Positions 8,650 through 55,396 of a DNA stretch of 64,000 bases are shown here, in pieces (position 1 is the first letter of the stretch; each line of letters starts with the position of its first letter). Both the position numbers and the translations under genes were made by a program. The stretch is from the NCBI RefSeq assembly GCF_019059575.1, contig NW_024881521.1, forward strand, positions 601,297 to 665,296, written 5' to 3'. The notes beneath the pieces were generated by a model that saw only the letters and a program-made list of their open reading frames with translations, did no database searches and had not been told where the DNA came from. This stretch comes from Amphibalanus amphitrite. Its lineage: Eukaryota.

Positions 8650-9705
8650 GTGAGTCAACGGGTCTGTCGGTGATACATTGATCAATGGGTGTTGCTGATT
8701 TTCCCGGCCTCTTCTTTTTCATCAGTCATTTTCCGTGAGTCAGTCCGTTGTTCATTTAGTCGGGTAGTTATTTCAGCCAACCGGTGAGCTAGCCTGCCAG
8801 TCATTCACCGTGTCATTTACCTACCCATTCCCGGCGGCCCAACCCCACCCCTCCATATTCTGGCTGTTGGAGCCTGTTGTGGCTGGGGTTATGTAGACAG
8901 TATACACACTGTCGTTGCGGCGTTCGGTCAGTTGCCGGGCGGTGTCCGGTGGTAGTATTTCCTTTACCACCCTGTTGTGTGCAGTGTGGGCCGATGGCCT
9001 GTCGGCCCGCGATACGGCGTCGGGCGCCGTGTTACCATCCGGGCCGCCATGGCGACTGGGACGGGGTGTGGGGGCCGCCGACCATCCGATTCCCGAGACA
9101 AGGATGTGAGATGGGGTGGCCGCCTGGCGCACACGGCGTGGGCTTATCTTCACTGACGGGCTGTGTGCCAGACGCTATGTTGTGTAGCTCGCAACAGAAC
9201 AAAACGTGATTGATTAGTAAACGTAATGATAACATCCTCCTCTCCGTCTTCGCTTCTTCCTGGGCTCATTTCGCTGTGAAACTACCGCAGTATTTGGTTG
9301 TCTAACACACCATCTCCTCTCCCTTCCTCAGCTGGGCGTGGTGTGTCTGGAGCAGGGCCTCCAGGCCCAGGGACTGGAGTTGTATGCTCTAACACCCCTC
9401 CCTCCCCCTTCTCTCCTCTCTGTTACAGCTGGGCGTGGTGTGTCTGGAGCAGGGCCTCCAGGCCCAGGAACTGGAGTTGCGTACTCTAACACCCCTCCCC
9501 CTCTCTCCTCTGTTACAGCTGGGCGTGGTGTGTCTGGAGCAGGGCCTCCAGGCCGAGGAACTGGAGTTGTATGCTCTAACACCCCTCCCTCCCCCTTCTC
9601 TCCTCTCTGTTACAGCTGGGCGTGGTGTGTCTGGAGCAGGGCCTCCAGGCCCAGGAACTGGAGTTGCGTACTCTAACACCCCTCCCCCGCTCTCCTCTAT
9701 TGCAG

Positions 9706-9987
9706 CTGGGCGTGGTGTGTCTGGAGCAGGGCCTCCAGGCCGAGGCGCAGGCCTACCTGGACAGAGCGCTCGAGCACGACCCCGACCACCAGCAGGCGCT
9801 GCTCAACTCGGCGGTGATTATCCAGGAGGAGGGGCCCCCGGAGCGGCGGCCGCTCGCCTACCAGCGGCTCCACCGGCTCATCGCGCTCCGACCGTCGGCC
9901 GTCGGACTCGACAGGGTCTACTTCAACCTGGGCATGCTGGCCATGGACGACCACGACCTGGTGCCCGCCGAGGCCTGGCTCAAAAAG
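9706..9987 (+). CDS. TMTC-family exon, TPRs (LGVVCLEQGLQAEAQAYLDRALEHDPDHQQALLNSAVIIQEEGPPERRPLAYQRLHRLIALRPSAVGLDRVYFNLGMLAMDDHDLVPAEAWLKK)
   Basis: ttgcag acceptor at 9700-9705, aag|gtgagt donor; this is the last of five tandem acceptor+exon-start copies, and which copy is used in vivo cannot be told from sequence. Confidence 0.65.
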
Positions 9988-10217
9988 GTGAGTAATGCGA
10001 GCCAAGGACTAGAGTGACTGTTCAAACTGTGACTGAGCTCATTTCGGCACCCCGCGTCCATCGTGTAAGTGGTTTAGCGGCGCGGGCTGGTCGGCCAAGC
10101 GGGCAGTTCGAAGTTGAGGTAGCCTTAGTGTTGATGCGTGCCTAGTATGCTCAGTTTCCTCTGTAAAGCCGCGCTGTGTGTTCTCAGTAGGCTGATTCCC
10201 GCCGGTCCCCTCTCCAG

Positions 10218-10412
10218 GCGGTGGAGGTGCGTCCCGAGTTCCGTTCGGCGCTGTTTAACCTGGCGCTGCTGCTGAGTGACGCCGGCCGGCCGCTGGAGGC
10301 CGTGCCCTTCCTCACCCGGCTGGTACAACATCACCCGGACCACGTCAAGGCGCTCATCCTGCTCGGAGACATCTACATCAACAACATCGAGGACCTGGAC
10401 GAGGCGCAAAAG
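10218..10412 (+). CDS. TMTC-family exon (AVEVRPEFRSALFNLALLLSDAGRPLEAVPFLTRLVQHHPDHVKALILLGDIYINNIEDLDEAQK)
   Basis: ctccag acceptor, aag|gtgggc donor; 65 codons. Confidence 0.7.
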
Positions 10413-10692
10413 GTGGGCTGCGTGGGTACGGCAAACCGGTAGGAGGCGTTCTCAGGCTGTCTATGGGTCCCGAATCGGCAGCTTGGTGGCGTGATCAAAA
10501 GTAATGCTGTATGGCTTAATGTATGGCTTAATGAGTGATCAACTATTGCTTGCGTTGCACTGTTTCCGTGGTCGGTCAGTTTTGAACGCCTGAGTGGTTA
10601 GCGGCCGGCGGCGGTGGCCGGTGGATGGCGCTCATTTCCCCCGCGCTCTATCGTTCATTCTCTTACCTGCTCCCTCGCTCTGTCGCCCGCAG

Positions 10693-10917
10693 TGTTACGA
10701 GCAGATTCTGCGCGTGGATCCGGATCACGTGCAGGGATTGCACAACCTCTGCGTAGTCCACGTGAAGCGGGACGACCTGGAGCGCGCCCAGCAGTGTCTG
10801 GAGCGGGCAGCTCGGCTGGCGCCCGACGAAGACTACATACAGCGACATCTACAGATTGTCCGAGCGCGCCGCCAGGCGGCCAAATCGGCAACTAGGCGGC
10901 CCGAGCCGGGCGCATAA
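10693..10917 (+). CDS. TMTC-family terminal coding exon (CYEQILRVDPDHVQGLHNLCVVHVKRDDLERAQQCLERAARLAPDEDYIQRHLQIVRARRQAAKSATRRPEPGA*)
   Basis: cccgcag acceptor; TAA stop at 10915-10917; matches ORF 10594..10917. Confidence 0.75.
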   Translation, partial: CYEQILRVDPDHVQGLHNLCVVHVKRDDLERAQQCLERAARLAPDEDYIQRHLQIVRARRQAAKSATRRPEPGA

Positions 10918-12535: not shown

Positions 12536-12667
12536 CGTACAGACGAACTTGAGCAGGTCGACGGCGTCGACACCCACAGAAGCGGCGTCTCCCCAGAAGA
12601 ACCGTAGCACCGTGACACCCTTCACCACCTCCTCCTCTTTACGCAGGTAGCCGGCGCGACAAAACTC
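12536..12667 (-). CDS. NSMCE3: NSMCE3/MAGE-like exon (EFCRAGYLRKEEEVVKGVTVLRFFWGDAASVGVDAVDLLKFVCT)
   Basis: matches MAGE homology domain C-terminus (..YLEYRQVP..YEFLWGPRA..KMKVLEFVAK pattern); gacag acceptor, acg|gtgaga donor. Confidence 0.75.
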
Positions 12668-13031
12668 CTGTCGACGTCAGAAGCCAGTTAGTCAAATCAT
12701 AGCCGGCGCGACAGAAATCCTGTCGACGTTAGACAAACTACACATTATAGCTGTCGCGACAAAACTCCTGCCAGCGTCAAACACGAAAGATCATAGCCGG
12801 CGTGACAGAACTCCAGTAACACCTCAGTGAGGCGTTCAGCTGCCGTGACAACAGTCATATCAGTCACTTATCAGTCATCAGTCACACCAGTCATTACTCG
12901 TCAGCACGGTCCGCCACCCCTGGTAAAAACCTCGGTCATACGTTCCTGACTAGCCTAATGCACTTCTCACCGGCCTCATAATTAATGGTAGTGTGAAGAG
13001 GCTGACTAGCCTCACAGCCCCATTGACTTAC

Positions 13032-13904: not shown

Positions 13905-13945
13905 AAGGGAGGAGAGAGAGAGAGAGAGAGAGAAAAAGGGAGGGG

Positions 13946-14006
<61 letters not shown>

Positions 14007-14032
14007 GGGGGGAGAGAGAGAGAGAGAGAAAG
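13905..14032. repeat. (GA)n/(CT)n microsatellite, ~125 bp, in NSMCE3-like intron 1
   Basis: direct reading. Confidence 0.95.
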
Positions 14033-14489: not shown

Positions 14490-14683
14490 ACAAAAGCGTT
14501 ACATAGGTATGGGGAACGAGAAGCGTACATAAGCGTCACAGACGGGAAACGGATTTGAACATAGGGGTTATTGACAGGGAGCGGGATCATTTACCTTCAC
14601 AGGTTATACACGGGAAACGATAGCCGCACTCTTGGGTCACCCAGTGCCTGGGCCATTGGGACCGAGGCATCGTCCATAATATA

Positions 14684-16040
14684 CAGGGTGTCCCATAAGT
14701 TCGTTCTCACATTATGTTTGCATGTGAAACAGAGTACATTGCGTTTTGGTATATTTATGACCCCTCAATGTGCTCCCCATTTAATAGGCAAACACATGAA
14801 TGCATGCTGCGGCATGCCAACCGGCATGTTTGGCTGCATAGCAGGCTTAAAGTTAACCCAGACTGACTTGACATGCGCCGTGAGCTCCTCGAGGCTGGAA
14901 CAGCGCTACGCTTCGACGAGCCTCAACTTGAGCATAACCAACAAATTTTTATGAAATTTTGATCCGATGAGGTGCCTGGCATGTGATCTTGCCACAAACG
15001 CCTGTCACAGTCTGCTTGCACCGCTTTTAAGCTTTGCTTGACCTGTGCACTGATGCACTGTCTTGCCTGAAGATGGGCCTACGACCTCCCGGATGCCATT
15101 TTCTCCTCTATAAATGTGTTCATACTCGCGGTTCGAGTTCAGCTTGAGGGCTGAAATTCCTCCTGGATGTTCTTGGAAAAGCACTCTGCTTCCCAAAACT
15201 GTTTCTGGGTTGCCACTTGTAACTTGATCAACTCCAGAACGCCTATAACCCCACAACACAGTGACCCTGGCCTCTTGCATAGGAACATAACGGGACGAAA
15301 TGAAGGCCTCCTCCTTCGCCCTTATGGGGTTGTTTTCGGGTTTGGACGGGTGTTTCATCTCGAACGTGGACTAGTTAGTCCAGATGACCTGGCTGATGTC
15401 ATCAGCCCCCTAGTTTTGTTTAGCCTCAGGCATAACGAAACTCATGTTTGGCCATTTTAAGACGTTTTTGACTGTTTTGTGCCCTCCGGTAAGCAAAGCT
15501 TAAGTCACCTTGAGTTATGTACCCCGAAAGAACACTCTTAGACAGCTGGTAATCCATCCTGAAAAGTATGTTTACCAACTTTCTAACCCTTTGACCTTTT
15601 TGATGGCCACTTTGGCGCCACACAGTTTTGGCCACTTGGCTCATTCCTGAGGGCTGGCTAGAAAGAGGATAAACTTGCAGTGATTGACTCCCAACAAATC
15701 ATCGGCGTCACTTGCTGACTGTGCGTCCAGTTAGCGATGGATATTGGCTACAGACTGGTAGGCCTCAATCACCCTCAATCGTCGCGAATGGTCACGTGCT
15801 GACTAAATACTGAGACGTACCCGTATCGGAGACCTCTATGTTGCGGCGTTAGCCGTGTCTGTAGGAAGCGGGCTCTCTAGCAAAAACTATTTTGTCTACA
15901 GAAATTAGCTACTGTGGAGCATATTTCTACCACCCATGGCAACCATGTAAGCTCAGTTACGAACCAATTTCAGCGTGCCTTTAAGCAAGAAAGCCTAAAA
16001 ACGTAAAATTTAGGTGAGAACGAACTTATGGGACACCCTG
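14684..16040. mobile_element. non-autonomous Tc1/mariner-like DNA transposon (~1.36 kb), 27-bp TIR CAGGGTGTCCCATAAGTTCGTTCTCAC, TA TSD
   Basis: perfect 27-bp inverted termini at 14684-14710 and 16014-16040, each abutted by TA (14682-83, 16041-42); no intact transposase ORF. Confidence 0.8.
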
Positions 16041-17579
16041 TAGATAACATAGACCGTTACAGACGGGATAGGGACGGACAAGACCGTCAGTATTAGACTG
16101 TCGCACCAGCTGTCGTCAGCGGATAATCAGTTGGATGCCCGGTGAGTCAGTATTGGGGACGACCGTCACTCACGTCATCATCCTGCGTGGCTCTGGTCCC
16201 ATTCTGAGACTGTCTCGGTCTTCCTCGCGGCATTCTTAGAAGCCTGCAAACAAAACAGGTGAGATGAAATCACACGCATGGGTTGTCACCCATTTCCAAT
16301 AAAAATGAACTCAATTATACTGGGTGATTCATTGGCCAATAAGGAAAGAAGTTTACAGCTAAAGCTACGCAACATAAGTTAAAAAAACACACACACATGT
16401 GCATGGACACTGGACAGTAGAGTCGCAACATTAATTGACAAGGGTGAGTTCGTCGTGCAGCACCATCGAAAAAAAAAATCGTTTTCATCTGAGAATCATA
16501 CCGTGAATAAAAGATGCATGCTAAAATAAATGCAAAGCACACTTCTTAAAAATGGCAAACATTCATCCACACACACACCAATGAGCCCACTTACAGACAC
16601 ACACAACCGTCCCTCGCAAAGATAAAGCAAAGTCCGTACCGAATAAAATCGTGTGGCATGGCATACAGGACTAACTAGGCAGTTCACGGATCCAAAGTGC
16701 AGAGCGATCAAGCTGCGAGGTGCGAACCATATTGCCCAGGAAGCCAAACTCGGTTGCATCTCCCCACGCCGAGGGGCAGAGCACTCAACGTGAACGTGAA
16801 CAGCGTCCCACCAAAGCGTCTGGAGTGTAATGTAGAAATTATTATTAGACCAAAAGATGGAAAGGCTTTCGCCGTGATTCCCCGATGTAACAGACTACCG
16901 GTCCCTTATGACGACCCTGCACATGAAATGACTGAAGCCACTGTGCTCAAAAGTTATCTGCATCGCAGCAGCTCTGCAGCCACGGGCGTCACTTTATTGA
17001 TGAAATTTTAGGATAGGGCTCTAATGGTTAACTTTAGGATACAAAAGCCATTCTCACCATGCAGCACCCTGGGGATAAGGTTAAAATTGTGAAATATTTG
17101 GTACGGCTCGGGTCCTACCAAGCCTATACCATAGAGCACCCATGTCTGCAGCCATGTGAAGGTGATGCCCATAAGTGAAATCAAGCAGCTGGAGGTGCAG
17201 GAAGCCCGTGAGGAATGCGATCATAAACTTACCCACGTGGTATATTCCAAGCATTGGTACCAGTGGTCCCTGACTGAGACTCACCAGATGGGCCAGCAGG
17301 ATGGAGTTGCTGGTTATGAGATGAGCTACGCTTAGGAGGCATCTGGTGGGTGTGTATACTATAAACAGTAGGTGTTGGCAGCTTATGGTGGTAATAGTAT
17401 GACTATAGGTAAGACAGCTAACAATAGACCTAGCCAATGCCACACTCAACTGACAGTACCTTTTCTGTATTTGACTATATTTAATCCAATTCCAACAGTA
17501 GGTATTGTTGACCAGGGGTCACCAATAGAAAACCAAACAGCAAACTCCAGAATCTGGCAGTGCACATAATACATATTAC

Positions 17580-23534: not shown

Positions 23535-23548
23535 TACATTGTCATCTA

Positions 23549-29756: not shown

Positions 29757-29942
29757 CATCACTGACCTGCTGCGGCTTTCCGAGCTTGTAGTGCGCCTCG
29801 GTCTCGTCTCTGGTGAGCAGGACGCAGTTCCAAGGCGTCCAGGGCTGTTCCACGTCCCAGCGGCAGAGCAGCAGCTCATAGAGGTCCGGATCGGCGCTCA
29901 GGCAGGACTGGCCGCCCCACAGCGACAGCACCAGGTGACGGA
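29757..29942 (-). CDS. IQ-motif gene exon (ESDFRHLVLSLWGGQSCLSADPDLYELLLCRWDVEQPWTPWNCVLLTRDETEAHYKLGKPQQ)
   Basis: tgttacag acceptor, cag|gtcagt donor; ORF 29614..29961. Confidence 0.65.
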
Positions 29943-30361
29943 AATCAGACTCCTGTAACACATGAAAGACAGAGGTGGTATGTCAGACAGGACTGACCGC
30001 CCCACAGCGACAGCACCAGGTGACGGAAGTCAGACTCCTGTAACACACAGACAGAGGTGGTATGTCAGACAGGACTGGCCGCCCCACAGCGACAGCACCA
30101 GGTGGCGGAAGTCAGACTCCTGTCACAGAAACAAATACATGTGTCAGACTCATTAACCTGTCCCATACCCAGATCATAAGTCACACGTAGGCCTCGCACA
30201 CACATGGGTAGCGAAAGTCGTACACCTTTCTCACACCGTATGTAGCGAGGAAAGACTTGCCAGTGACCAAACCCCACGCACGCTCCCCGTACTTCGACTG
30301 CAGGCTGTCCTCTCTCACATATACTAGAGTACCACTGACCCGTCAGTAATCCTCCGCTGAC

Positions 30362-32669: not shown

Positions 32670-32789
32670 CTGTTTGCGCCGTTCTGCGTCGTCCACAATC
32701 CACTGGAGCACGACATCCCGCTCCCTGGCCATCCGCTGTACCCGGCGACGGGCCAGCCAGCGGCGCCAGTACTTCTGTAGAAGAATCGC
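32670..32789 (-). CDS. IQ-motif exon (AILLQKYWRRWLARRRVQRMARERDVVLQWIVDDAERRKQ)
   Basis: IQxxxRGxxxR-like calmodulin-binding motif (LQKYWRRWLARRR); ccaccacag acceptor, cag|gtcaga donor. Confidence 0.65.
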
Positions 32790-32904
32790 CTGTGGTGGAG
32801 AGCGTGAATATCGTCAGACAGGGGAGTAACACGGGCCAACCAGCGGCGCCAGTATTTTTGTAGAACGATCGCCTGTGGTGGAGAGGGAACATCGTCAGAC
32901 AATT

Positions 32905-35450
32905 GGGGCCTATTGTTGTTGTTGTTGTTGTTCCCCCTGGGACCTCCTTACGGAGGACCATAGCCGAGAGGCTCCCTATGGCGAAGGTAGCCGGCCTCCA
33001 AGGCAGCCACCAGGTCGGCGTCCCGCAGCCGCGACGGGTCGACGTGAATGCTGCCAGTTAGCCGCAGGCGGGCGCCAGCGAGGGCCGGGCAGCGGAGCAA
33101 CACGTGCTCCGGCACGTCCGCCTCTTCCCGGCACACGGCGCAGAGCGCCGTGGGGCACCGCTTATCGGGGCACTGCAGGCATGCCACGGAGGGGTGGCGG
33201 CCGATCCGGTGCAGGTATTGGAGCGAGCGGCCCCAGTGGCCCACCCTCCACTGGTGCACCGAGATGGCGGCCTCTCGGTCCTCTCCGGGGATGGGGAGCG
33301 GCAGGGTGCTCCCGAAGATAGCCTTGAAAAAGGAGTCGGGCCAGTTTTCGCGCCACTGACGTGTGGTCGTCCGATGAACTGCCCGTGTCAGGGGCCGAGC
33401 GTCCGAGGGCACGGCGCCCTGGGGCAGGGTGGCCGCTTGCTTGGCCAGGGCGTCAGCGCGCTCGTTCTCCGCCAGCCCGCAGTGAGCAGGGACCCACTGC
33501 AGGGTCACCTGCCGGCGCTCGGCAATGTCCAGCAGCGTCCTCCAGATCGCCGCGCCGAAAGTGGAGGTCTGGGCGGCCGCTCCCGCGCTGAGGAGGCTCA
33601 GGGCGGCTCGTGAGTCAGAGCACGCCACCAGCGGGGCGGGGGACGGCTCATCCCGGACCCGCTCCAGCGCCGCCCTCAGGGCGAACAGCTCCGCACGGGT
33701 GCTGGAGCAGAGGTCTCCCGCCACCACCTCAACCTCGAGAGTCTCCCCCGACGCGGTAAAGATGATGGCGCCGCCCCCTCGCCTCGCCTGACCCCAGCGT
33801 CCGCAGAGCCGTCGGACCAAATCCACGTGGCCTGGGCTGGGAGCGCCGCCAGGTGCTGCCGCGCGGCCTCTCGTCGCGTCTCGTTGGAGGAGGCTCGACG
33901 ACCGCCGGGTCCCACGTCCAGATTGAAGGCGATCGGGCGGCAGGTTGTCCACGGGAGGAGGGGAACCTCGAGGCGCGGCTCCACCGTCACTCCCTCGGCG
34001 CCCGCCTCGATCAGCGCCGATCGCCCCAGTTGTCGCCAGCCGGTGGTAGACCGCAGTCGAGTGGGTGGGTCGGCCTCCGCGACGCGGCGAAGAGGGTCGT
34101 CCTCCGGCAGGGCGAGCGCTCGGCAGAGCGTTCGCGCGGCCAGCGTCTTCCTGGTGGACCATGCTGAAGGGATGCCAGCCTCGGCCAGCAGGGGATCCCT
34201 GGGGGTGGACCTTGGGCATCCGGTCACCACCCGGGCTGCCGCCAGCAGCTCGCGCTCCACCAGCTGAACGTGTGACGGGGACGCGGCCGGGAGCCAGGCA
34301 CCCGCTGCGTATTCAAGGGCTCCCCGGACATACCCGTTCGCGACTGTCCTGAGCTGCGCCTCGCGGAGACCCCAGGCCCGGCCGGTCATCCTCCGCAGCT
34401 GTGCCGTCCGCGGCCGGACCTTCCGCCGCAGCAGAGAGTCGCAGTGGTCTTTAAAGTGTAGAAGTCTGTCGAAGGTCACCCCCAGAAGATGTAGGCTGGT
34501 GCCACCGGTGACCTGCGTGCCGTTCGCCAGGAGTTGCACGCCGCGCTCGTCCCTGCTCCGCTGAGTCAGCAGCAGCGCCTGGGTCTTCTGTCCGGCGATG
34601 GACATCTTCCAGTGCCTTGCCCATCGGGCCAGGGCGTCGGCCGACTTCTGGGCGCGAGCCACCGCAAGCTCTACGGTGGCTCCAGCGCTCAGTGTGGCCC
34701 TGTCGTCCGCATACATCAGGACGTCCGTGCGGTCCGAGGCGTTCCGCAGGGTCTCGATAAGGTCCGCCGCCCAGAGCGTGTAGATGGTCGGTGCCAGGAC
34801 CGAGCCCTGCGGCAGGCCCGCGCGGAACACGCGCTCGCTGCTGTGCGCGCCGTTGACCTCTACGCGGGCCCGCCTGCCGCGAAGGAACCGGAATTTCCAG
34901 GTCGCGAGACATCTGGGGAGGAGCTTGAGGAGCTTCAGGTGCAACATCCGGTGATCGATCGTGTCATAGGCACGGGAGAAGTCGAACGCCAGGAGGACAA
35001 AGCGGTCCGCCGTCACGCCATCCTCCGGGCCTCGTCTCGGCTTGGGGCGATTCCAGCCATCTTGAACCGTTTGGACCAAGCGGGCCAGACTGTCCTCCGC
35101 CGACCTCCCGCGGCGGAACCCGACCTGTTCGGGGGGCACCAGTCGGTCTCGCTCGATGAGGTAGGTCGTCCGGGCCGCGATCATCCGCTCCGCTAGCTTG
35201 GCGATGTGACTCGTGAGCGCGATCGGGCGGTAGCTGCCCACTTGTTTGGGGTCTTTGCCGGCCTTAAAGATAGGGATGATGGTCGCCCGTCGCCATGAGG
35301 CGGGCGTCTCGAGGTTGGACCACGATCTGTTGATGAGTGCCAGAAGGGTCCGGTAGGCCGTCGGTCCGAAGTGCCGCAGGTGTTCGGTGCATACCCGGTC
35401 CGGTCCTGGCGCCTTCTTCGTCCCGAGGTGTCGGATTTGGTCGTCGGATT
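32905..35450 (-). mobile_element. 5'-truncated, frameshifted RNase-H-containing non-LTR retrotransposon (I/R1/LOA-type): RT, RNase H, C-terminal CCHC finger
   Basis: rc ORF 33676..35676: RT motifs (GPD.., FADD-equivalent YADDRA..); rc ORF 32948..34219: RNase H (..WVPAHCGLAENERADALAK) and C..C..H..C finger; (CAA)n 3' tail at 32918-32936; ~70% GC, unlike the host introns. Confidence 0.85.
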
Positions 35451-35883
35451 GGGGCCTGTCTGTGGGAGAGACACACAGCCCAACAAACGACGCCAGTACT
35501 TCTGCAGAACGATCGCCTGCAGAGACAGCGGGAGCATAGTCAGACGCGGGGAGACAGTCACACGGGCCAGCCAGCGACGCCAGTGCTTGTGAGGAACGAC
35601 TACCTGTGAGGGCGAGGGGAAGACTGTTGGTGCGTGTGGGGGGGGGGGGGGGGCACGGCATATCAGCGAGAGGCACAGATTGTCGCTGATATGGACCAGA
35701 CCACTGTCAAGTGTCAAAATAAATTATTTTTACAAGCTAAGCGAAATATGTGAGGGTACTTGATTGTTTATGAATGGTTAAACATAGCGAAGCTAGTTAT
35801 AATTTCCAAAATCCCACACCATGGCTGTAATACTGTTTGTGAGCATGCCGCCAGTGCAAGACCCAGCGCGGCGCCGCTCTCAC

Positions 35884-37257: not shown

Positions 37258-37454
37258 CTGTGAGACAATCACAAACGAGGATGGAAGGTCACAAGCAGAC
37301 TAAGACGATCTGACAAGTAACCTCACATCACTGTCTACGTAGAATTGCACAAACAACCACAATCGTAACATTTTTAACTGTAACATTGACTGTCACCGAA
37401 CAGTGGCTGTATTTATCCCGTTTAGCCGCCGTCCTGTGCCCCCACGCCACTCAC

Positions 37455-45925: not shown

Positions 45926-48900
45926 AACCCACAACATAACCTACCTACCTACCGCCGACGGTGACGCCAGCTTTACCGATAGGTACCGAAAATGCTAGGA
46001 TACGTCAGCACCTCTGACCAGTCGTTAGATTTTTATCTACTTGGACTTCATCTTCACATTTAATAGTGTGTGCCCACAATTATCAATTCACACTTAACAC
46101 TGAAAATGTCATTGGTTAAAATCAAAATTGAAATAGACGCCAATCGCCATATCTACTCACCAGCCGCAGAGCGAGTGTAGGACGCCTCAGCAGTCAGCCT
46201 CCGTCGTCATCGTTATTTCGTCGAAGAAAACAAAGACGAAATGAGGGAAAACACCATTAATGCATTATGCATATTTAATGGAAAATATAAATATCCGGCA
46301 GTGTCTAGTACGTCCCCTCCCACTCTTTTTTCTCTCTTTGAAAAGACCAAGGCCCTATATGAAAAGACAAAAAATGTGTGAGCGCTCAGGGCCGAATACA
46401 ATGCAGTGTTCCAAATAAACTACAGAATAAATATGACGTCATAGGCTCGATCTTGTTTTGATCTGATATGACGTCACATAGAGTTTGGTACAAGACTGTG
46501 TAAACAGCATCGAGGCTATATAAACGATAAAGTTGATTTAAAGCTGACTAAAATATTTGACTTCTTAAGAAAAATTTAAAACTGTAGGCAGGCTTAAATT
46601 GATAACAGTTTTAAAAAAATGCATGCTGATCCTTAAACATCTCATTTGCCTTGCTACCTTTGCCATTTCAACGTTTTTTAAACAATTAAGCATAAGATAT
46701 CATAAACCAAGCTCTTTTTGGCAAAATAAGCAAAGCAAAGCATATCTATTCCATGATTTTTAACTTTCCAAAGAAATAACTTTTAAGTAATACGTCATTT
46801 ACAAAGGCTTATATTATCGTGATTGGCGCGATTTCTAAACTAATGCGCCATGGTCGTATAAATTTTCCCGCTGAGGATGCGCACACAACACACACATTTT
46901 GATATTTGCAATTGTGTAATTTGTTGATAATAAATGCACTATATTGATATAGTTATTGATCTGTATCCTTTCTTATATTATTGTTATTGTGCTATGTTAT
47001 TTATGTGCCTAGTACCTTCAGCAAAGGCTTTAAGCTGTTTCTGTGATGACATATGATCAGGGCCAGTGTTGGAAAAGTTGCCGTTTTCTGGTATCAGATG
47101 CGCCAGGAATTTTGTACTCCACTGGAAAATGACAATTTTTGTACTCCAATGACTACGCGTCCCACACAAATAAAAGGGTGTGAAATTTGACAATGAACTG
47201 CCCATACTCCCTTGTGTTACAGGTACCCAGTGGAAACACAGCTTCTGCAATAACTGCATCCCAGCCCGGGGGCCCAACCCAAGTCAGGGCAAAAACTACA
47301 AGTACAATGCACAGCATAATGAAGATCGAAGAGCCAAATATCCTGCATAACATCCACCAGCCGTGATGAACAACTACCAGAACTGATACTTGTACTGGTA
47401 CATTGCTGTGTTATGCTTAACAAATTTGAATTATGTGCTTACGTGGTCCTGTAGACAATGTACCTACATGAAATAAACATACATGCAAAGTGTTGTATTT
47501 TGTGAGCTTAATAACTAAGAATGACTTGCATTTGTGCCAAGTCCAAATCCAGGATGATGATGAGGTACAAAGTTATCAAAAACGCCATGGAGTACCTATT
47601 GGTCTGGACCAGGGTCTGGACTAAACGCTGCATGTGTACCTATCGTAATAGGGATCATAGGGATATCCGGATATCAACTCACAGGCCCGACCACAAAATG
47701 AATGAATATACGTCGCAAGGTATATAAAAACACTTTACTAATTACTATACAATAATACACTATACATCTCATTATGATGCGTCGTATATATTCCTATCTC
47801 CATGCCGCTACCTACCACAGCAAAAATAAGTGCGCAATGATTGTCTTTTTGTTAGAGATGATCAAGTCAGCACAGCTTCTGTGGAGTCGCTGATTCAGTT
47901 CTCCTAAGGATGGAATTTTAAATGGTTTATGATCGGGAGACGACTTGGAATCTTTCGACATTTGCATCGTAACTGTTGCTCAAATAATGATTGTTTGTGG
48001 TTTAAAAAAAGGAGAAAAATACAACCTTTCAAAATATGACCAATTTTTTCCAAATGAAATGCCGTAACTGTTAATATTGAAGATTTTCTGAACTGGAAAC
48101 TCGATGATAAAACTTAAAGTGCAGATCCAGTACTCCTTTGCCAATTGTATGCTCCACACAGCTCCGTTTCTCATGGCCCGGCTATGACAGATACAAAATT
48201 GAGCCTGCTTTCTGATGGTAGGCAGTTTTTGGCCAGAGGACCTATGGTTATTGTGAAATTGGTGTTCAAAGGCTGTACTCCGACCTCTGTCTCCGGGTCC
48301 TGTTGCCGTAGCGTAATCGCGATTCCGTGGTATGTGCTGTGCCAACTCTATCGGGCCGCTTATTTCGCCGCGCCGATATTTGTGCCGCTGGTGCCGCCGG
48401 CGGCGTTTTCCACATTTTCGAAGCTGGCTGAAGTAATTATATTTTCGTTTGTTTTCCATTGTTGCCTGTTTTCCATGCTATGAGTATAGTTGTAAGAACA
48501 ACCTAACAGGTTTTGTCTTTTGTAATTGTAATCAAGCGTGGGCCGTGGCCGTGGGCATTGGCATTAGCGGTGGGGTAAGTGAACGTTCCACTTTGATTTT
48601 GGTCTGGTTCCTTTCATGATAGTAAATAATAAATATGTACTATGATGACTATGATGATTGATTGATAATTTGACTGTTACCTGGAGTGGAGTTAATATCA
48701 CTATCATTAACCTCCCAATTGTCTTTGCTGATCTAGGTACTATCATTTCTCTGACCCTGAATCAGAATATTCATTCTTATTTTAAGTCATAAGCATGATT
48801 CAACAAAGTGAAGTCCTATACATAAGTTGTCTAACAAATTCAGATAATCTTGCTTTCAGTTATAGCTTGCATTTCATTATATTGCATGACTAAGTAGTGC

Positions 48901-49257
48901 TTCCTGGTGCATACGAGAGCACCAATTTTTGGTTCCAGACTCTCGTCCCTACTTCTAGCTGCTAACCTAATCCTTACTATGACCACTAACCACTCAGTTA
49001 TGATCACATGATACTTGCCACTCTCAACAAAAAAGTTCTAGTTGATCGTCTTGCTGCGTCACTCGATAAACATTGTTTTCCACACTGTATTGTTTATTCA
49101 CATGCTTACAATTCTACATACATAGGTACAAAGAAAAACACTGCACAAAAAAATACACTATGCAGACGCAATTGACCACCCCAACGCTGTACAGTTGTAC
49201 TCCACTGGCCCAAAAATTTTGTACTCCACTACCAGAACAAAAAAGTGAAATTCCAAC

Positions 49258-49560
49258 CCTGATCAGGGCTGCGGAGTCGATGGATTTTCGGCGACTCCGA
49301 CTCCGACTCCGGCTTTCAAAAACCAGCTCCGACTCCGACTCCGACTCCGGGCAGAATTGTCAACTCCGACCGACTCCAACTCCCAACTCCGACTCTGCAG
49401 ACCTAGCAGGGCTGCGGAGTCGACAGATTTTCGGTGACTCCGACTCCGGCTCGGGTTTCTAAAATCGACTCCGACTCCGACTCCGACTCTGGTCACAACT
49501 GTCGACTCCGACCGACTCCGACTCCGACTCCGACTCCGCAGCCCTGCATATGATCATGAC
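49258..49560. repeat. two tandem ~150-bp units, each bounded by inverted CAGGGCTGCGGAGTCG / CGACTCCGCAGCCCTG termini and filled with (GACTCC)n hexamer repeats
   Basis: direct reading; hairpin-forming minisatellite or MITE pair. Confidence 0.8.
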
Positions 49561-50900: not shown

Positions 50901-51083
50901 CGTCGGAGTCTGGCGCCGAGTCAGTTCTCGGCGCTGAAGCGGCGCTCGGACGAGTCCTGCTCCCGGGCATCTGGCAGGAAGCAGCCGGCGCTGGAAGAGG
51001 ATGGCGCCGCCGTGGTCCGCTCCCCGCTGCAGCCCATTAACGTGCCGCTCGGCGCGTCGCCCACCGGACCCGTCTCTGACTAT
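50901..51083 (+). CDS. RAD54L: RAD54L first recognisable coding exon (RRSLAPSQFSALKRRSDESCSRASGRKQPALEEDGAAVVRSPLQPINVPLGASPTGPVSDY); initiator is either the in-frame ATG at 50859 (unspliced) or lies in an upstream exon
   Basis: human RAD54L begins MRRSLAPSQLAKRK..; tctgcag acceptor at 50900, tat|gtgagt donor. Confidence 0.7.
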
Positions 51084-51407
51084 GTGAGTCGCCCTCGCGG
51101 AACCGTAACACACTAAACCCGTATGTTAATTAAACGTCAGTCGCTTGCTTGACGTGTCTGGGACACGGTGAGTCACCGATTATCTGAATCGTCCACCGGG
51201 CCCTTCTCCGTATGTGAGTCGGCGACTGGTCCCGGACGCGATGTTTAGCGCCGCCGGACCAAAGCTACGCGTAGCACACGGCAGCACACCGTAGCTACGG
51301 TTTGCTGCATGGACGTCTGTAAAGGTACACACCCATCCTGTCCCAACGGACGGGTGAGACACCCCACATCGCCCTCTCACTGCTCAATGTTCCCACTCTG
51401 TCTCCAG

Positions 51408-51611
51408 GAGGCCCGTCTGCGTCAGATCCTGTCTCGACCGTTCAAGATCCCGATCCCGAGTTACAACGGCGCGCGACTGGCGGACCGCCGACTGGGGGTG
51501 CGGCGCACGGGTGCGCGTCAGCCGCTGCACGACCCCGACGAGCCGGGCGCGCTGGTGCTCTACAGTCCGCCGCAGCTCAGCCAACACGAGCAGCTCACCA
51601 TGCAGGCGTCA
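51408..51611 (+). CDS. RAD54L: RAD54L exon (EARLRQILSRPFKIPIPSYNGARLADRRLGVRRTGARQPLHDPDEPGALVLYSPPQLSQHEQLTMQAS)
   Basis: matches human ..[61 protein letters not shown]; 3' boundary (gtgatg donor) uncertain. Confidence 0.75.
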
Positions 51612-51932
51612 GTGATGGGGAGGGAGAGGTCGGGGCTGGGGAAGCCGGAAAGGGGAAACTAGTCTGGGTCATGAGCTCCTATTCAAAAGAGAATGTTGAT
51701 GGCTGACTCGTACTTAACTCTGCCTGAGTCACTTTTGGAGTGATGGGGCAATCACTCGTTTTGACCTCGTTGATTCAGTTACACATACCCTTCCTGTCTC
51801 TTTTTTTATACAATCATTTCATTCCAGTTTTTTTACGATAGCATTTTGGAGTTTTGCAATTTTTCCGAATGTGCACTGCTGAACTCTGCTGCTGAATTGT
51901 GCGTGCCCGCCCCCTGTTTCAGTGACAAGCAG

Positions 51933-51992
51933 CTGGTACACGTGGTGGTGGATCCGGCGCTAAGTAATGTGCTGCGGCCCCATCAGCGGGAG
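51933..51992 (+). CDS. RAD54L: RAD54L exon ([20 protein letters not shown])
   Basis: matches [21 protein letters not shown]; acceptor aagcag (alternative tttcag 10 nt upstream), gag|gtgagt donor. Confidence 0.75.
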
Positions 51993-52248
51993 GTGAGTCG
52001 CCCTGTCTTCTCTCCTCCCCCTCTCCCAGAGTCGGTTTTGTAAGGAAGTACGTTACGTCCCAATCCCTCACAGGGCTGGAATTATTAGGGGTCGTATAAA
52101 GTTTGTCCGCCTGTTCGTCGGTGACAAAGCATGAGTCAGCTTTTGTCCATGATAGGATTTGTCTGCATGATCTGTTTCTGCTCATCGCCGTGCCCTACTG
52201 CTCACAACAATCCCCGCGGCATCACGTTCACCTGTCCGTCTCCTCCAG

Positions 52249-52443
52249 GGCGTCAAGTTCATGTACGACTGCGTGACCGGGCGCCGGATCGAGGGCAGCT
52301 TCGGCTGCATCATGGGCGACGAGATGGGTCTGGGCAAGACGCTGCAGTGCATCACCCTCATGTGGACACTGCTGCGACAGAGTCCCGACTGCCGGCCCGA
52401 GATCGATCGCTGCATTGTCGTCACACCCAGCAGCCTGGTCAAG
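52249..52443 (+). CDS. RAD54L: RAD54L exon, SNF2 ATPase motif I ([65 protein letters not shown])
   Basis: near-identical to human [65 protein letters not shown]; ctccag acceptor, aag|gtcggt donor. Confidence 0.9.
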
Positions 52444-52715
52444 GTCGGTGGCAGGGCGACGTGGATCTCGCGAGATGCTGCATTACGTACCGGTAGATAG
52501 CTAGTGACGATTTTCATCGGCTGTTCCTAGTTCTTTTCGAAGATGTTCTGCCTATAACAGAGCTTCGGTCAGTTTGCTATAGAAAGCCCAACTCAGGTCA
52601 TTTTTCATTTGCGACTCGTCTGTATCAAATGTGATGCCAGTCTGTTGTGATTACGTTTTTGCACCTATCATAATATGTCCTTACGATGTCTTTCTATGCC
52701 CGCGTTTTCCACCAG

Positions 52716-52934
52716 AACTGGTACAACGAGATCAGCAAGTGGCTGTCGGGCCGGGTCTCGGCGCTGGCGATGGACGGCGGCGGACGGACGGAGGTGGTCC
52801 GACAGCTCGAGGGGTTCATGACGCGCACCGGCCGCCGGCCCGTCAACCCCATCCTCATCATCTCCTACGAGACGTTCCGCATCCACGCGGCGCTGCTGCA
52901 CCGCGGAGAGATCGGACTCGTGCTCTGTGACGAG
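52716..52934 (+). CDS. RAD54L: RAD54L exon ([73 protein letters not shown])
   Basis: matches [73 protein letters not shown]. Confidence 0.9.
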
Positions 52935-53186
52935 GTGAGAGGGTGATGAGAGGACTGGCGAGACTAGGGGTCGATGGCAGGATGTGAGAGTCGGTGCAAG
53001 AGCTGGGACTCTGTAATGGAGTGAGAACGGTGGTGAGATATTTGGTGATTGTCAGATTGGGATGTCGAGTGGGTTAGTGAGAGGGCTGGTGCTCTTGTAG
53101 TAGTGGCAAATGTCAAATTTATTTTATCGTCTTACATCGATGGATGATGGCCTGATCAGGTGTCTTCCTCCCTTCCCTGACAATAG

Positions 53187-53327
53187 GGTCACCGTCTGAA
53201 AAACCACGAGAACCAGACGTACTCGGCACTGATGAGTCTCAACTGCCGACGGCGTGTCCTGCTCTCCGGCACACCCATCCAGAACGATCTGCTCGAGTAC
53301 TTCAGTCTGGTGCACTTCGTCAATGAG
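53187..53327 (+). CDS. RAD54L: RAD54L exon ([47 protein letters not shown])
   Basis: matches [47 protein letters not shown]. Confidence 0.9.
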
Positions 53328-53577
53328 GTAAGGCTGGGTGTGGCGACAGCATATTGCACTTGATGTGTCACGAGCAGCAGATGGCTCTTGGTTTGGCGAA
53401 ACCCCGATAAACAAACGGCGATAACATAATGCGACAGTGAGTGGGTGTGGCGACCATAGTGGCGACAGCATAGTACGGCTGACCGACGCGGCATATGGCT
53501 GGTGATATCTCCAATTCTCACTCGCATGTTGGAGCCTTTCACAGCGACCTCTCTCGACCCTCTTCGTCCCTCCACAG

Positions 53578-53714
53578 GGCATTCTGGGCACTGCGAGCGA
53601 GTTTAAGCGTAAGTTCGAGACGCCGATCCTGCGGGGTCGTGATGCTGACGCCACCGATGACGAGCATAAGAAGGGCAACGAGCGCCTCCAGGAGCTGCTG
53701 TCTATCGTCAACAG
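53578..53714 (+). CDS. RAD54L: RAD54L exon ([45 protein letters not shown]-)
   Basis: matches [46 protein letters not shown]; ends phase 2. Confidence 0.9.
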
Positions 53715-54113
53715 GTGGGCGAGACTGGGAGGCGGTCGGTAGAGGAAAGGATATTTTAGGTGGGGTGGCTTACGAGCAGTTTTCAAAGGATAGGCATTCT
53801 TATTCAAAGAAATCAAATGAGTTCTCTGCATCTGTTATGGTAGCTATGACACAGTAATCTTACCATCTTGACACAAATATCTGGGATCGAATCCTAATTA
53901 CAGAAGCTGCTTGGCTTTTGGGGTTGTATTATGCTCATTTCGTTGACTGATAGCAAAAAGGCGCTCTTCGAGCATCTACCCAATTTTCCCGACGATCATT
54001 GACATCGGATCAACCGTCAATCATCAAACGACCAATCAGCCATTTTCCGGTTTATTTTCTCTATCAGTGAAGCGTTTTCACCATGACTGACATGCAACTG
54101 TCGCTGCCCTCAG

Positions 54114-54274
54114 GTGTATCATCCGCCGCACGGCAGCGATTCTCTCCAAGTACCTGCCGGTGAAACAGGAGCTGGTGGTGTCCTGTCGTCTCACCGACTG
54201 CCAACTGGCGCTCTATGACGCCTTTATACGCTCGGACGCCGTGCGTCGGAGTCTGATGGGACAGAAGGGCAGCG
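54114..54274 (+). CDS. RAD54L: RAD54L exon ([54 protein letters not shown])
   Basis: matches [40 protein letters not shown].. Confidence 0.85.
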
Positions 54275-54703
54275 GTACGTACAGGGTGCTGAGATGCAGA
54301 TAACGATGCGCGGGGAGAGAGTCGTGATTTGGGCGTGACTTCTGCGTCGATTGACACTGATGTATGGACTTACTTAGCTCTATTATTTAGATAATACGAG
54401 GGTCAGTGCTTGTCTGAAACTAAAACTGACTACCACCGCGAGTCGCGAATGCTTATAAACATAAGTGTCGATTTCTGCTGAGTTGCGGGTGCCCGTACAC
54501 TACAGATCCTCCGCGACCCTAGCAGTGACCTTGACCCGCACCGTCTGTTATGGCTCAAAAAGTCAAGCCGGAGTTGAATTGGGAGAGCTTGGCCACCTCC
54601 AGTTCAGCAAAAATCGTTACCTATGCCTAAGAATGTGGAGTGGATTAAATGGCGCGGGCTGGTAGCGATTCTAGCCTATCATTTCACTTTTCTGCACCGC
54701 CAG

Positions 54704-54854
54704 GTCACGGCAAATCGACTCAGTCGGCGCTGTCCGCCATCACCAGTCTGAAGAAGCTGTGCAACCACCCGGACCTGATCTACGAGAAGGTCACTGAGCC
54801 GGGCAGTGAGCTGCGCCATCTGCTGCAGCTCTATCCAGACGGACACTCGACAAA
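54704..54854 (+). CDS. RAD54L: RAD54L exon (GHGKSTQSALSAITSLKKLCNHPDLIYEKVTEPGSELRHLLQLYPDGHST-)
   Basis: matches ..SSITSLKKLCNHPALIYDK..; cgccag acceptor, aa|gtgagt donor. Confidence 0.85.
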
Positions 54855-55396
54855 GTGAGTCGGGGACTCGGGAGGCAGAGCTAACTCAGACAGTCAGACG
54901 GACACTCGACAGAGTGAGTTAGAGAGTCAAGACGAACTCAGACAGATACTCCGTGAGTTTGTCAGGGATGACAGTCCTGCCCAGACGGACTCGCGATATT
55001 AGAGGCTGTCGGAAACTAGCAAGGTCCGTATAGGTTACAAAGTAGGGGCATCCCGTGAAGCAACTGAATGACTAACCTGCAAACACCACCACAGTATATC
55101 ATTCTCCCCTCCTGTGTCCACCAGGCGTGTCCGCGTCCACTCGTATCTGAAATTCCGCAGTCCGCACCCGCCTGTCCGCCAGACGAGTCCGTCCGGAGCT
55201 GTCCGGCAGCTGGGTGTCTGTGTCAATATCTACCCGCCCCTGTCCTCCAGGAGAGTCCGTCCGGACCTGTCCGGCAGGGTGTCTTTGTCCTCTAATATCT
55301 ACCCGCCCCTGTCCTCCAGGCGAGTCCGTCCGGAGTTGTCCGGCAGGGTGTCTGTGTCTTCTGATGTGTCTAATACCCCCTCCCTGTGTCCACTAG

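What the first reader, a model, noticed from the sequence alone, without database searches (positions are those of the whole stretch)
9308..55396. Window-wide pattern: intronic tandem arrays anchored on splice junctions at seven loci in four genes
Seven exon boundaries in this 64-kb window (in the TMTC-like, NSMCE3-like, IQ and RAD54L genes) show the same architecture. The boundaries are at 9706, 12667, 29942, 32789/35455, 51083, 54854 and 55397. In each case 2-5 direct degenerate repeats lie in the intron and reiterate the junction plus the first or last 25-60 nt of the exon. The lengths are not multiples of 3, and the repeats are always on the intron side. The density of such arrays looks too high for random minisatellites, though I cannot quantify that here. 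It suggests a locus-independent process such as replication slippage or unequal exchange seeded at junctions, or serial duplication of AG|GT-bearing exon ends as in tandem-duplication models of intron gain and splice-site creep. It also creates ladders of cryptic splice sites.
Basis: inference. Interest (0 to 1): 0.85.

Follow-up and report, generated by a model that had tools for sequence, protein, structure and literature searches.

The report
Splice-junction-spanning minisatellites ("mirages") in barnacle genes
In this barnacle (Amphibalanus amphitrite) region, eight exon-intron junctions in four genes sit at the edge of short tandem repeats that copy the junction and leave intact decoy splice sites in the intron; this kind of repeat is already known from amphioxus and a few human genes, and here it is unusually dense but only about three-fold commoner at junctions than chance predicts.

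Summary
The window is from the barnacle Amphibalanus amphitrite. It carries TMTC3-like, NSMCE3/MAGE, IQUB and RAD54L genes.

Corrections to the finding:
- The IQUB acceptor is at 29952, not 29942.
- 35455 is not an exon boundary. It lies in the target-site duplication of a retrotransposon that split the 32789 array.
- Repeat spacings are multiples of 3 as often as chance predicts.
- "Always on the intron side" follows from how the exon is defined.

The decoy splice sites are intact and score as high as the real ones. One array is copy-number polymorphic (5 versus 2 copies). The gooseneck barnacle Pollicipes has its own arrays at non-orthologous junctions.

Under a random-origin model, junction-spanning arrays are about 3-fold enriched. 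In the window, 8 were observed against 2.6 expected. In independent loci, 8-9 were observed against 2.7 expected (P about 0.001-0.004). Unit boundaries show no fixed offset from the junction.

These are "mirage" minisatellites, as described in amphioxus and in human F7, CBS and IFI6. They are ordinary tandem duplications that are tolerated when the copy contiguous with the exon is spliced. This is a new member of a known kind, of moderate interest.

The parts
1907..2007 (+). TMTC3-like acceptor 1978: two-copy duplication with 66-bp spacing. The pseudo-acceptor is at 1912 (ctctctcag|ACTGGCGGTG) and the real one at 1978.
   Evidence: Junction-probe score 40 against a null maximum of 23. Self-scan. 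Sequence. PWM 9.1 for the pseudo-site and 7.5 for the real site. Identical in GCA_009805615.1.
9301..9745 (+). TMTC3-like acceptor 9706: four pseudo-copies with acceptors at 9332, 9429, 9519 and 9616, plus the real junction. Units alternate 97 and 90 bp, each made of 50-57 nt of intron tail (CTAAC branch-site-like motif and pyrimidine tract) plus 40 nt of exon head. Copy-number polymorphic.
   Evidence: TRF 97 bp x4.5, and 187 bp x2.2 at 97%. Exon map. Probe score 100. PWM 13.0-14.8 for pseudo-sites and 13.4 for the real site. The other assembly has only one pseudo-copy.
12648..12817 (-). NSMCE3/MAGE acceptor 12667: three older pseudo-copies at 12719, 12767 and 12813, with spacings of 52, 48 and 46 bp. 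Each unit has about 20 nt of exon head plus about 30 nt of intron tail. The pseudo-acceptors have decayed.
   Evidence: TRF. The MAGE domain is contiguous across the stitched exons. Exon coordinates. Self-scan score 53. PWM 4.7, 2.0 and -3.1 for pseudo-sites and 7.9 for the real site.
29898..30131 (-). IQUB acceptor 29952 (not 29942): two pseudo-copies at 30037 and 30119. Each unit is about 82-85 bp, made of about 30 nt of intron tail plus 55 nt of exon head.
   Evidence: TRF 82 bp x2.8 at 91%. Exon map from Pollicipes IQUB. Probe score 95. The single Pollicipes exon end matches all three copies. PWM 10.7 and 8.2 for pseudo-sites and 9.2 for the real site.
32748..32901 (-). IQUB acceptor 32789: the proximal pseudo-copy (acceptor at 32872, spacing 83 bp) repeats the start of the IQ-motif exon.
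   Evidence: TRF 83 bp x1.9. Probe score 81. PWM 12.1 for the pseudo-site and 11.6 for the real site.
32902..35457 (-). Non-LTR retroelement inserted into the IQUB array. The body is 32912-35447, with an (AAC)n tail at the low-coordinate end. It is flanked by the 10-bp target-site duplication attggggcct (32902-32911 and 35448-35457).
   Evidence: Sequence. ORFs of 666 aa (RVT_1, E=4e-24) and 423 aa (RNase_H, E=5e-13).
35458..35610 (-). Distal, older part of the IQUB 32789 array. It has two further diverged copies with pseudo-acceptors at 35516 and 35603. The retroelement separates it from the rest of the array.
   Evidence: Sequence. Weak tblastn hits to IQUB residues 266-306. PWM 9.6 and 11.0. 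Self-scan.
51057..51221 (+). RAD54L donor 51083: weak two-copy duplication of about 27 nt of exon tail plus GTGAGT. The best-aligning copy lies 132 bp downstream. The PWM scan also reports a second GTGAGT-containing partial match 84 bp downstream at 51167.
   Evidence: Sequence. Probe score 39 against a null maximum of 27. Self-scan. Not found by TRF.
54836..54919 (+). RAD54L donor 54854: two-copy duplication with 59-bp spacing, made of 19 nt of exon tail plus GTGAGT. The pseudo-donor is at 54913.
   Evidence: Sequence. Probe score 45. PWM 7.0 for the pseudo-site and 10.1 for the real site. Identical in GCA_009805615.1.
55106..55433 (+). RAD54L acceptor 55397: four pseudo-copies with acceptors at 55125, 55183, 55251 and 55320, at spacings of 58-77 bp. 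Each unit has about 40 nt of intron tail (with CTAAT) plus about 37 nt of exon head. The pseudo-acceptors score higher than the real one.
   Evidence: TRF 69 bp x2.8. Exon map. Probe score 55. PWM 11.6-13.1 for pseudo-sites and 9.5 for the real site.

Best explanation
These are "mirage"-type minisatellites. A short segment of 30-130 bp that happened to straddle a splice junction was duplicated in tandem. The array then grew and shrank by the usual minisatellite processes, replication slippage and unequal exchange.

The gene keeps working because the copy still joined to the rest of the exon is the one spliced. For a donor this is the first copy, and for an acceptor the last. All other copies, with their exon fragments and intact pseudo-splice sites, are left inside the intron.

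Survival acts as a filter. Acceptor-type units always carry at least 30 nt of intron, so the real acceptor keeps a branch site and a pyrimidine tract.

The arrays are frequent here because barnacle introns generate many minisatellites and these genes are compact, with about one junction per 150-500 bp. A founder unit therefore often overlaps a junction.

Shown: the anatomy, intact pseudo-sites, use of the exon-proximal site in all gene models, copy-number polymorphism, lineage-specific turnover and about 3-fold enrichment.

Inferred: the slippage or unequal-exchange mechanism, near-neutrality and the branch-site filter.
For: - Anatomy and exon maps.
- Junction probes score 39-100 against a null maximum of 18-27.
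- Allelic copy number is 5 versus 2 at TMTC3 9706, and the array lies inside a divergent haplotype block.
- The TMTC3 array has a higher-order 187-bp unit at 97% identity.
- RefSeq isoforms X1 and X2 and the GenBank model of TMTC3 all use acceptor 9706. The RAD54L protein is identical in both annotations and maps to the exon-proximal sites.
- Pollicipes and an unlinked A. amphitrite paralogue have their own arrays. None lies at a junction orthologous to a window array. Examples are RAD54L_Pp donors 14265 and 14782, IQUB_Pp 6084 and 4858, TMTC loci 30483, 38341, 75583 and 79823, and L003 donor 28688.
- The exonic share of units is spread over 2-62 nt with no fixed offset.
- Acceptor-type units carry 30-59 nt of intron in 8 of 8 cases. 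I estimated P about 0.017 under a uniform offset by hand from the values.
- Pollicipes introns hold about 45 ordinary arrays in 62 kb, so junction arrays are the tail of a general process.
- The same structure is described as "mirages" in amphioxus and as VNTRs in human F7, CBS, IFI6, LMNB2 and PDGF, with normal splicing at the exon-proximal site.
Against: - Junction-spanning loci are about 3-fold commoner than a uniform-origin model predicts. The window has 8 against 2.64 expected, and independent loci 8-9 against 2.7 (P=1e-3 to 4e-3). Pure chance overlap therefore does not fully account for them. GC-rich exon ends or a bias towards compact genes might, but this was not tested.
- Within the four window genes only two tandem duplications are purely intronic.
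- Pseudo-acceptors upstream of RAD54L 55397 score higher than the real site. Why they are not used is unexplained, and no RNA data were available to check.
- The two A. amphitrite assemblies are 100% identical over most of the region. Apart from the divergent block, they do not confirm each other independently.
Confidence: 0.8

Rival explanations
1. A junction-targeted mutational process creates the duplications preferentially at exon-intron boundaries. Candidates are transcription- or splicing-coupled DNA breaks, R-loop-associated repair, and reverse-transcribed splicing intermediates re-inserted at the locus.
For: About 3-fold excess of junction-spanning loci over a uniform-origin model, in the window and in independent loci. 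In the compact RAD54L and IQUB genes of both barnacles, 9 of 10 tandem-duplication loci span junctions (5 of 5 in the window genes and 4 of 5 in Pollicipes, treating the split 32789 array as one locus). RAD54L orthologues in amphioxus, Daphnia and a crab show 0, 0 and 1 weak junction arrays.
Against: Unit boundaries have no fixed relation to the junction. The exonic part is 2-62 nt and the intronic part 17-105 nt. Acceptor units start 0-20 nt upstream of the likely branch motif rather than at it, which argues against cDNA from lariat intermediates (my reading of the sequence). In long-intron Pollicipes genes the count is close to expectation, with 3-4 junction arrays among 56. The independent A. 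amphitrite loci show no excess, with 1 observed against 0.76 expected. The difference from non-barnacle controls is weak (P=0.048, or 0.16 without the window).
Confidence: 0.12
2. The arrays are kept by selection because the extra splice-site copies do something useful. They might act as splicing enhancers or decoys, provide U1/U2AF loading sites, or serve as alternative sites that tune expression through nonsense-mediated decay.
For: Pseudo-sites in the younger arrays are intact and as strong as the real sites. Use of pseudo-acceptor 9616 would add 30 codons in frame without a stop (ORF 9580-10014).
Against: No array is conserved between the two barnacles at orthologous junctions. The older NSMCE3 array has decayed pseudo-sites. 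Copy number varies between alleles. No annotated isoform uses a pseudo-site. Intact sites in young arrays are expected from recent duplication alone.
Confidence: 0.04
3. The arrays are intermediates of intron gain or intron sliding by tandem duplication of AG|GT-bearing exon ends (Rogers-type model).
For: The structure supplies the raw material such models need. The amphioxus authors proposed this for mirages.
Against: All junctions involved belong to introns already present in both barnacles. RAD54L has 13 exons of the same lengths except for the first and ninth, which differ by 3 nt, and the IQUB junctions align. No new intron or shifted junction is seen, and all gene models use the ancestral junction.
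Confidence: 0.03
4. The arrays are assembly artefacts, that is spurious local duplications.
For: The two A. amphitrite assemblies are identical over most of the region and so are not independent. The amphioxus paper reports one mis-assembled mirage.
Against: Copies are degenerate (72-97% identity) with indels, unlike artefactual duplicates. A retroelement with a target-site duplication is inserted into one array. The divergent haplotype still carries a pseudo-copy. The same architecture occurs in an independent chromosome-level assembly of another species.
Confidence: 0.01

Closest known systems
Amphioxus "mirage" minisatellites (Adh3: Canestro et al. 2002, cited in PMC3087553; globin genes BflGb6 and BflGb9: PMC3087553)
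   Same: Both are tandem repeats whose unit spans an exon-intron boundary. Both 5' and 3' boundaries are affected. Units are tens to about 160 bp. Many copies keep AG/GT. Copy number differs between haplotypes, and normal splicing uses the authentic junction. The authors suspected a general phenomenon in that genome.
   Different: The phylum differs (arthropod, Cirripedia). The density is quantified here as 17 of 208 junctions in about 300 kb from two barnacles, with a formal random-origin test. Somatic instability was not testable. The amphioxus RAD54L orthologue itself has none.
Human junction-spanning VNTRs: F7 IVS7 (37 bp), IFI6/6-16 intron 2, CBS IVS13, LMNB2, PDGF intron 4 (PMC1557585)
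   Same: The first monomer spans the exon-intron boundary, so identical pseudo-5' splice sites follow the authentic one. Only, or mainly, the most exon-proximal site is used. The arrays are polymorphic in copy number.
   Different: The human cases are isolated loci, and the cases listed in PMC1557585 are all on the donor side. In A. amphitrite most multi-copy arrays are on the acceptor side, and several occur within one 64-kb window.
Intron gain by tandem genomic duplication (Rogers model; Gao and Lynch internal gene duplications; potato RdRp case, PMC4974935)
   Same: A tandem duplication of a segment carrying splice signals leaves the mRNA unchanged if the outer sites are used.
   Different: In that model an exonic AGGT segment is duplicated and a new intron is born. 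Here a pre-existing junction is duplicated and no intron is gained.
Ordinary intronic minisatellites (VNTRs)
   Same: Unit size, degeneracy, higher-order units and copy-number variation are the same. In Pollicipes they fill the introns, with about 45 arrays in 62 kb.
   Different: The founder unit includes a splice junction, so each copy carries a pseudo-exon end and a competent-looking splice site.

Membership tests
Mirage minisatellite (junction-spanning VNTR) | Head-to-tail tandem repeats with a minisatellite-size unit (about 10-160 bp) | tested here: met
   TRF periods are 48-97 bp with 1.9-4.5 copies. The self-scan gives periods of 52-132 bp.
Mirage minisatellite (junction-spanning VNTR) | The repeat unit contains an authentic exon-intron boundary, with exonic and intronic sequence in each copy | tested here: met
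   Protein-anchored exon maps. The exonic part is 19-55 nt in the window arrays. Junction probes score 39-100 against a null of 27 or less.
Mirage minisatellite (junction-spanning VNTR) | Both donor and acceptor boundaries can be affected | tested here: met
   The window has 6 acceptor and 2 donor cases. Pollicipes has 6 donor and 2 acceptor cases.
Mirage minisatellite (junction-spanning VNTR) | Copy-number (length) polymorphism between haplotypes | tested here: met
   TMTC3 9706 has 5 copies in the window and 2 in GCA_009805615.1. The other five arrays checked are identical, but the assemblies are not independent there.
Mirage minisatellite (junction-spanning VNTR) | Normal splicing uses the authentic, exon-contiguous site | tested here: inconclusive
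   All RefSeq and GenBank protein models use the exon-proximal junctions. No RNA reads were available.
Mirage minisatellite (junction-spanning VNTR) | Somatic instability (reported for amphioxus Adh3) | not testable with these tools
   This needs PCR or long reads from several tissues.
Intron gain by tandem duplication (Rogers model) | A new intron, absent from relatives, bounded by the duplicated AG|GT copies | tested here: not met
   All affected junctions bound introns shared with Pollicipes, and the RAD54L exon lengths match.
Introner or transposon-derived intron sequence | Dispersed copies elsewhere in the genome, with terminal repeats or target-site duplications | tested here: not met
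   Junction probes find nothing above score 27 in about 150 other introns of the same species, apart from one unrelated score of 48. The copies are strictly local and tandem.
Coding tandem repeat (in-frame exon repeat) | Copies lie inside the exon and are translated | tested here: not met
   Annotated proteins contain a single copy of each duplicated segment.

The most novel reading that the evidence does not exclude
Barnacle genomes may have a tandem-duplication process biased towards splice junctions, for example coupled to transcription or splicing. Under this reading roughly 8% of junctions carry ladders of fully competent pseudo-splice sites. The spliceosome would then have to ignore upstream acceptors that look stronger than the real one. 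That would make these genomes a natural large-scale experiment on splice-site choice and a standing source of intron sliding or gain.
Probability: 0.12. Interest if true: 0.8.

Novelty: new member of a known kind. Interest (0 to 1): 0.45.

Why it matters
If the density seen here holds genome-wide, barnacles would carry thousands of natural splice-site duplications. Here 17 of 208 junctions, about 8%, were affected in about 300 kb from two species.

That would be a ready-made resource for asking how the spliceosome picks the exon-proximal site among identical or stronger competitors, and how much mis-splicing and nonsense-mediated decay this costs. It would also show how often such arrays seed intron sliding or new exons.

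There is a practical side too. Gene predictors and short-read aligners can place junctions on the wrong copy, and VNTR alleles at junctions are potential splicing variants.

None of the 11 papers returned by a full-text search for "barnacle", "genome assembly", "tandem repeats" and "intron" is a barnacle genome study. Term searches inside two barnacle genome papers found no mention of tandem repeats or minisatellites. The observation extends "mirages" from amphioxus to arthropods.

Tried and rejected
- **First combined IQUB+TMTC homologue search.** It returned only Pollicipes IQUB, because TPR words saturated the candidate list. I repeated it without the TPR part.
- **Look-ups of RefSeq-only A. 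amphitrite and Pollicipes isoforms.** They failed. The GenBank and longest isoforms found through cluster members worked.
- **TRF-boundary classification with a whole-array-length null.** It mislabelled the RAD54L 55397 array as intronic and gave inflated junction probabilities (P=0.19 for the window). I replaced it with a uniform self-scan and a founder-unit null.
- **Per-probe comparison of junction and intronic probes.** The rates were 7.3% and 5.6%. The comparison is not informative as it stands. Most intronic hits lie inside the junction arrays themselves, and some are (CT)n microsatellite.
- **Exhaustive GT-AG reconstruction of the 268-aa MAGE protein.** It gave too many solutions. I used Pfam-validated exon pieces instead.
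- **Idea: units come from cDNA of lariat intermediates that stops at the branch point.** Rejected, because units extend 0-20 nt upstream of the likely branch motif and donor-side arrays cannot arise that way.
- **Idea: the haplotype switch coincides with the VNTR, marking a crossover.** Rejected, because the divergent block spans 7501-10112 and the array lies inside it.
- **Pollicipes arrays at L002 1906-1985 and L004 26450-26612.** They lie about 30 nt from a donor but do not include the junction, so I counted them as intronic.

Full report
**Source and genes.** The RAD54L exons of the window are 99% identical to Amphibalanus amphitrite RAD54L and 88% identical to that of the gooseneck barnacle Pollicipes pollicipes. 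The window is therefore from the acorn barnacle A. amphitrite.

I built exon maps by tblastn of the species' own or the sister species' proteins, then refined them to GT/AG boundaries. They cover these genes:
- TMTC3-like, + strand, exons 441-10914 in the window.
- An NSMCE3/MAGE gene, - strand. The stitched exons match the MAGE domain over 1-202 of 207 positions at E=6e-26.
- IQUB, - strand, 29357-37595.
- RAD54L, + strand, 50901-57150.

TRF reports arrays at 9329-9745, 12648-12814, 29898-30131, 32748-32901 and 55171-55362. Each one abuts or contains an authentic junction: 9706, 12667, 29952, 32789 and 55397.

I tested every junction with a probe of 40 nt of exon plus 15 nt of intron, aligned to the adjacent intron. 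The null was the same probe against about 150 other introns. An eighth case, TMTC3 acceptor 1978, scored 40.

Corrections to the finding:
- The IQUB acceptor is 29952, not 29942.
- 35455 is not an exon boundary. It lies in the 10-bp target-site duplication of a 2.5-kb non-LTR retroelement with RVT_1 and RNase H domains and an (AAC)n tail. The element inserted into the 32789 array, whose older copies continue at 35458-35610.
- The 51083 and 54854 cases are two-copy and partly degenerate.
- Seven of 18 spacings between successive copies are multiples of three, which is about the chance rate.
- "Always on the intron side" is true by definition, because only the copy contiguous with the rest of the exon can be the exon.

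**Anatomy.** Acceptor-side units consist of 30-59 nt of intron tail plus 20-55 nt of exon head. Donor-side units consist of 2-62 nt of exon tail plus 17-105 nt of intron head.

The exonic share has no preferred value. All eight acceptor-type units across the loci studied carry at least 30 nt of intron. I estimated P about 0.017 under a uniform offset by hand from the values. I read this as a survival filter: the real acceptor must keep its branch site and pyrimidine tract. That reading is an inference.

I built a position weight matrix from 53 authentic A. amphitrite sites. It shows that pseudo-sites in the younger arrays are intact and as strong as the real ones:

| Junction | Real site | Pseudo-sites |
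|---|---|---|
| TMTC3 9706 | 13.4 | 13.0-14.8 |
| IQUB 32789 | 11.6 | 9.6-12.1 |
| RAD54L 55397 | 9.5 | 11.6-13.1 |
| NSMCE3 12667 (older array) | 7.9 | 4.7, 2.0, -3.1 (decayed) |

. The "ladder of cryptic splice sites" is therefore real. All available protein models use the exon-contiguous junctions. These are RefSeq X1 and X2 and the GenBank model for TMTC3, and the single RAD54L protein shared by both annotations. No RNA reads could be examined.

**Dynamics.**
- The TMTC3 array has a 187-bp higher-order unit at 97% identity.
- It is allelic in copy number, with four pseudo-copies plus the real junction in the window and one pseudo-copy plus the real junction in GCA_009805615.1.
- The array lies inside a divergent haplotype block (7501-10112). 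The rest of the two assemblies is essentially identical.
- The other five arrays checked are exact copies in that assembly. Given the near-identity of the assemblies, that is not independent confirmation.
- An artefact is still very unlikely. Copies are degenerate, one array hosts a retroelement with a target-site duplication, and an independent assembly of another species shows the same architecture.

**Related loci.** I fetched six further loci:
- L001 and L005: the second A. amphitrite assembly.
- L003: an unlinked A. amphitrite TMTC paralogue.
- L002: the Pollicipes IQUB-RAD54L locus.
- L004 and L006: two Pollicipes TMTC loci.

Pollicipes has its own junction arrays:
- RAD54L donors 14265 and 14782. 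The latter has nine copies of a 44-bp unit made of the last 14 nt of the exon plus GTGGGT...CCTCAG.
- IQUB donor 6084 and acceptor 4858.
- TMTC acceptor 30483 and donors 38341, 75583 and 79823. The 75583 array has about 20 copies of CGCCCG|GTGAGTGAC.

The A. amphitrite paralogue has three pseudo-donors after 28688. None lies at a junction orthologous to a window array, and the window's arrays are absent from the Pollicipes orthologues. The arrays are young, lineage-specific and turning over, while the introns themselves are old. RAD54L has 13 exons in both barnacles, 11 of them of identical length and two differing by 3 nt.

**Is the junction association more than chance?** I ran a uniform self-similarity scan across all modelled genes and clustered the hits into loci. 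For each locus I computed the probability that a founder unit of that period, placed at random, would span a junction.

| Set | Loci | Junction-spanning, observed | Expected | P |
|---|---|---|---|---|
| Window (chosen for this pattern) | 10 | 8 | 2.64 | 2e-4 |
| Independent A. amphitrite loci | 14 | 1 | 0.76 | 0.55 |
| Pollicipes | 61 | 7-8 | 1.95 | 2e-3 to 4e-4 |
| All independent loci | 75 | 8-9 | 2.7 | 4e-3 to 1e-3 |

That is about a 3-fold excess, concentrated in the compact RAD54L and IQUB genes. Long Pollicipes introns are packed with ordinary minisatellites (about 45 in 62 kb), and the junction arrays are a small subset of them.

RAD54L orthologues in amphioxus, Daphnia and a crab show 0, 0 and 1 weak junction arrays among 82 junctions. 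The barnacles show 17 of 208 (P=0.048, or 0.16 without the window).

**What it is.** The structure matches "mirages" point for point. [quoted passage not shown] They occur at both 5' and 3' boundaries, differ in copy number between haplotypes and leave splicing undisturbed. It also matches human junction-spanning VNTRs such as F7 IVS7, IFI6, CBS, LMNB2 and PDGF, where the exon-proximal site is used.

The most economical mechanism has three steps. Ordinary tandem duplication gives a founder unit that overlaps a junction, which is likely in compact genes. The array then expands and contracts by slippage or unequal exchange. It is tolerated because the exon-contiguous site is spliced.

A junction-targeted mutational process is not excluded by the 3-fold excess. 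It finds no support in the unit boundaries. The Rogers-type intron-gain reading fails because no intron is new.

**Novelty.** A full-text search for barnacle, genome assembly, tandem repeats and intron returned 11 papers, none of them a barnacle genome study. Term searches inside two barnacle genome papers found no mention of tandem repeats or minisatellites. This is a new member of a known kind. It is notable for its density and for pseudo-acceptors that look stronger than the real site. It is not a new category.

Noticed in passing
window 43061-45724: Large inverted repeat with arms of about 1.25 kb, each carrying long arrays of 14-16/30-bp subrepeats (43064-43653 and 45131-45721, about 39 copies). 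It resembles a foldback-type element. The other A. amphitrite assembly carries it too, at 97-98% identity.
   Followed up: partly
window 47063-49260 and 14683-16041: Two segments of 2.2 kb and 1.36 kb are absent from the other A. amphitrite assembly (L001 and L005). They are insertion/deletion differences between haplotypes or assemblies.
   Followed up: partly
window 49264-49545; L003 13814-14107: A GACTCC-rich repeat of about 142-148 bp x2 occurs in the window's intergenic region and again in an intron of an unlinked TMTC paralogue. It is a dispersed repeat family, not a local minisatellite.
   Followed up: no
window 60385-61008 (within minus-strand ORF 59715-63263): 33/99-bp tandem repeats (period a multiple of 3) lie inside a 1182-aa open reading frame on the minus strand. 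They are probably a coding repeat in the gene next to RAD54L. The only Pfam hit is a sub-threshold TFIIA match.
   Followed up: partly
window 32912-35447: Apparently young non-LTR retroelement with open RT and RNase H reading frames, an (AAC)n tail and a 10-bp target-site duplication, sitting in an IQUB intron. The GenBank annotation of the other assembly fuses its RT domain to IQUB in a 1361-aa product.
   Followed up: yes
window 13912-14029: (GA)60 microsatellite in an NSMCE3/MAGE intron.
   Followed up: no
L006 10001-84036 and L004 10001-45850 (Pollicipes TMTC loci): Pollicipes introns are extraordinarily rich in GC-rich minisatellites with periods of about 28-80 bp and up to about 20 copies, at about 0.7 arrays per kb. 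L004 also has a 500-bp (CT)n tract at 37260-37790. The genome paper reports only 3.2% RepeatMasker repeats.
   Followed up: partly
window 1-22268 versus L005: The two A. amphitrite assemblies show no mismatches, and only occasional 1-7-nt gaps, over most of this region. They differ by 4-8% in two blocks (about 4501-5000 and 7501-10112). This suggests shared source material with different haplotype choices. The RefSeq assembly also carries the locus on two contigs (1.8 Mb and 777 kb).
   Followed up: partly
window 9580-10014: The reading frame stays open through the last TMTC3 pseudo-copy. Splicing at pseudo-acceptor 9616 would insert 30 in-frame codons that duplicate part of a TPR helix.
   Followed up: no
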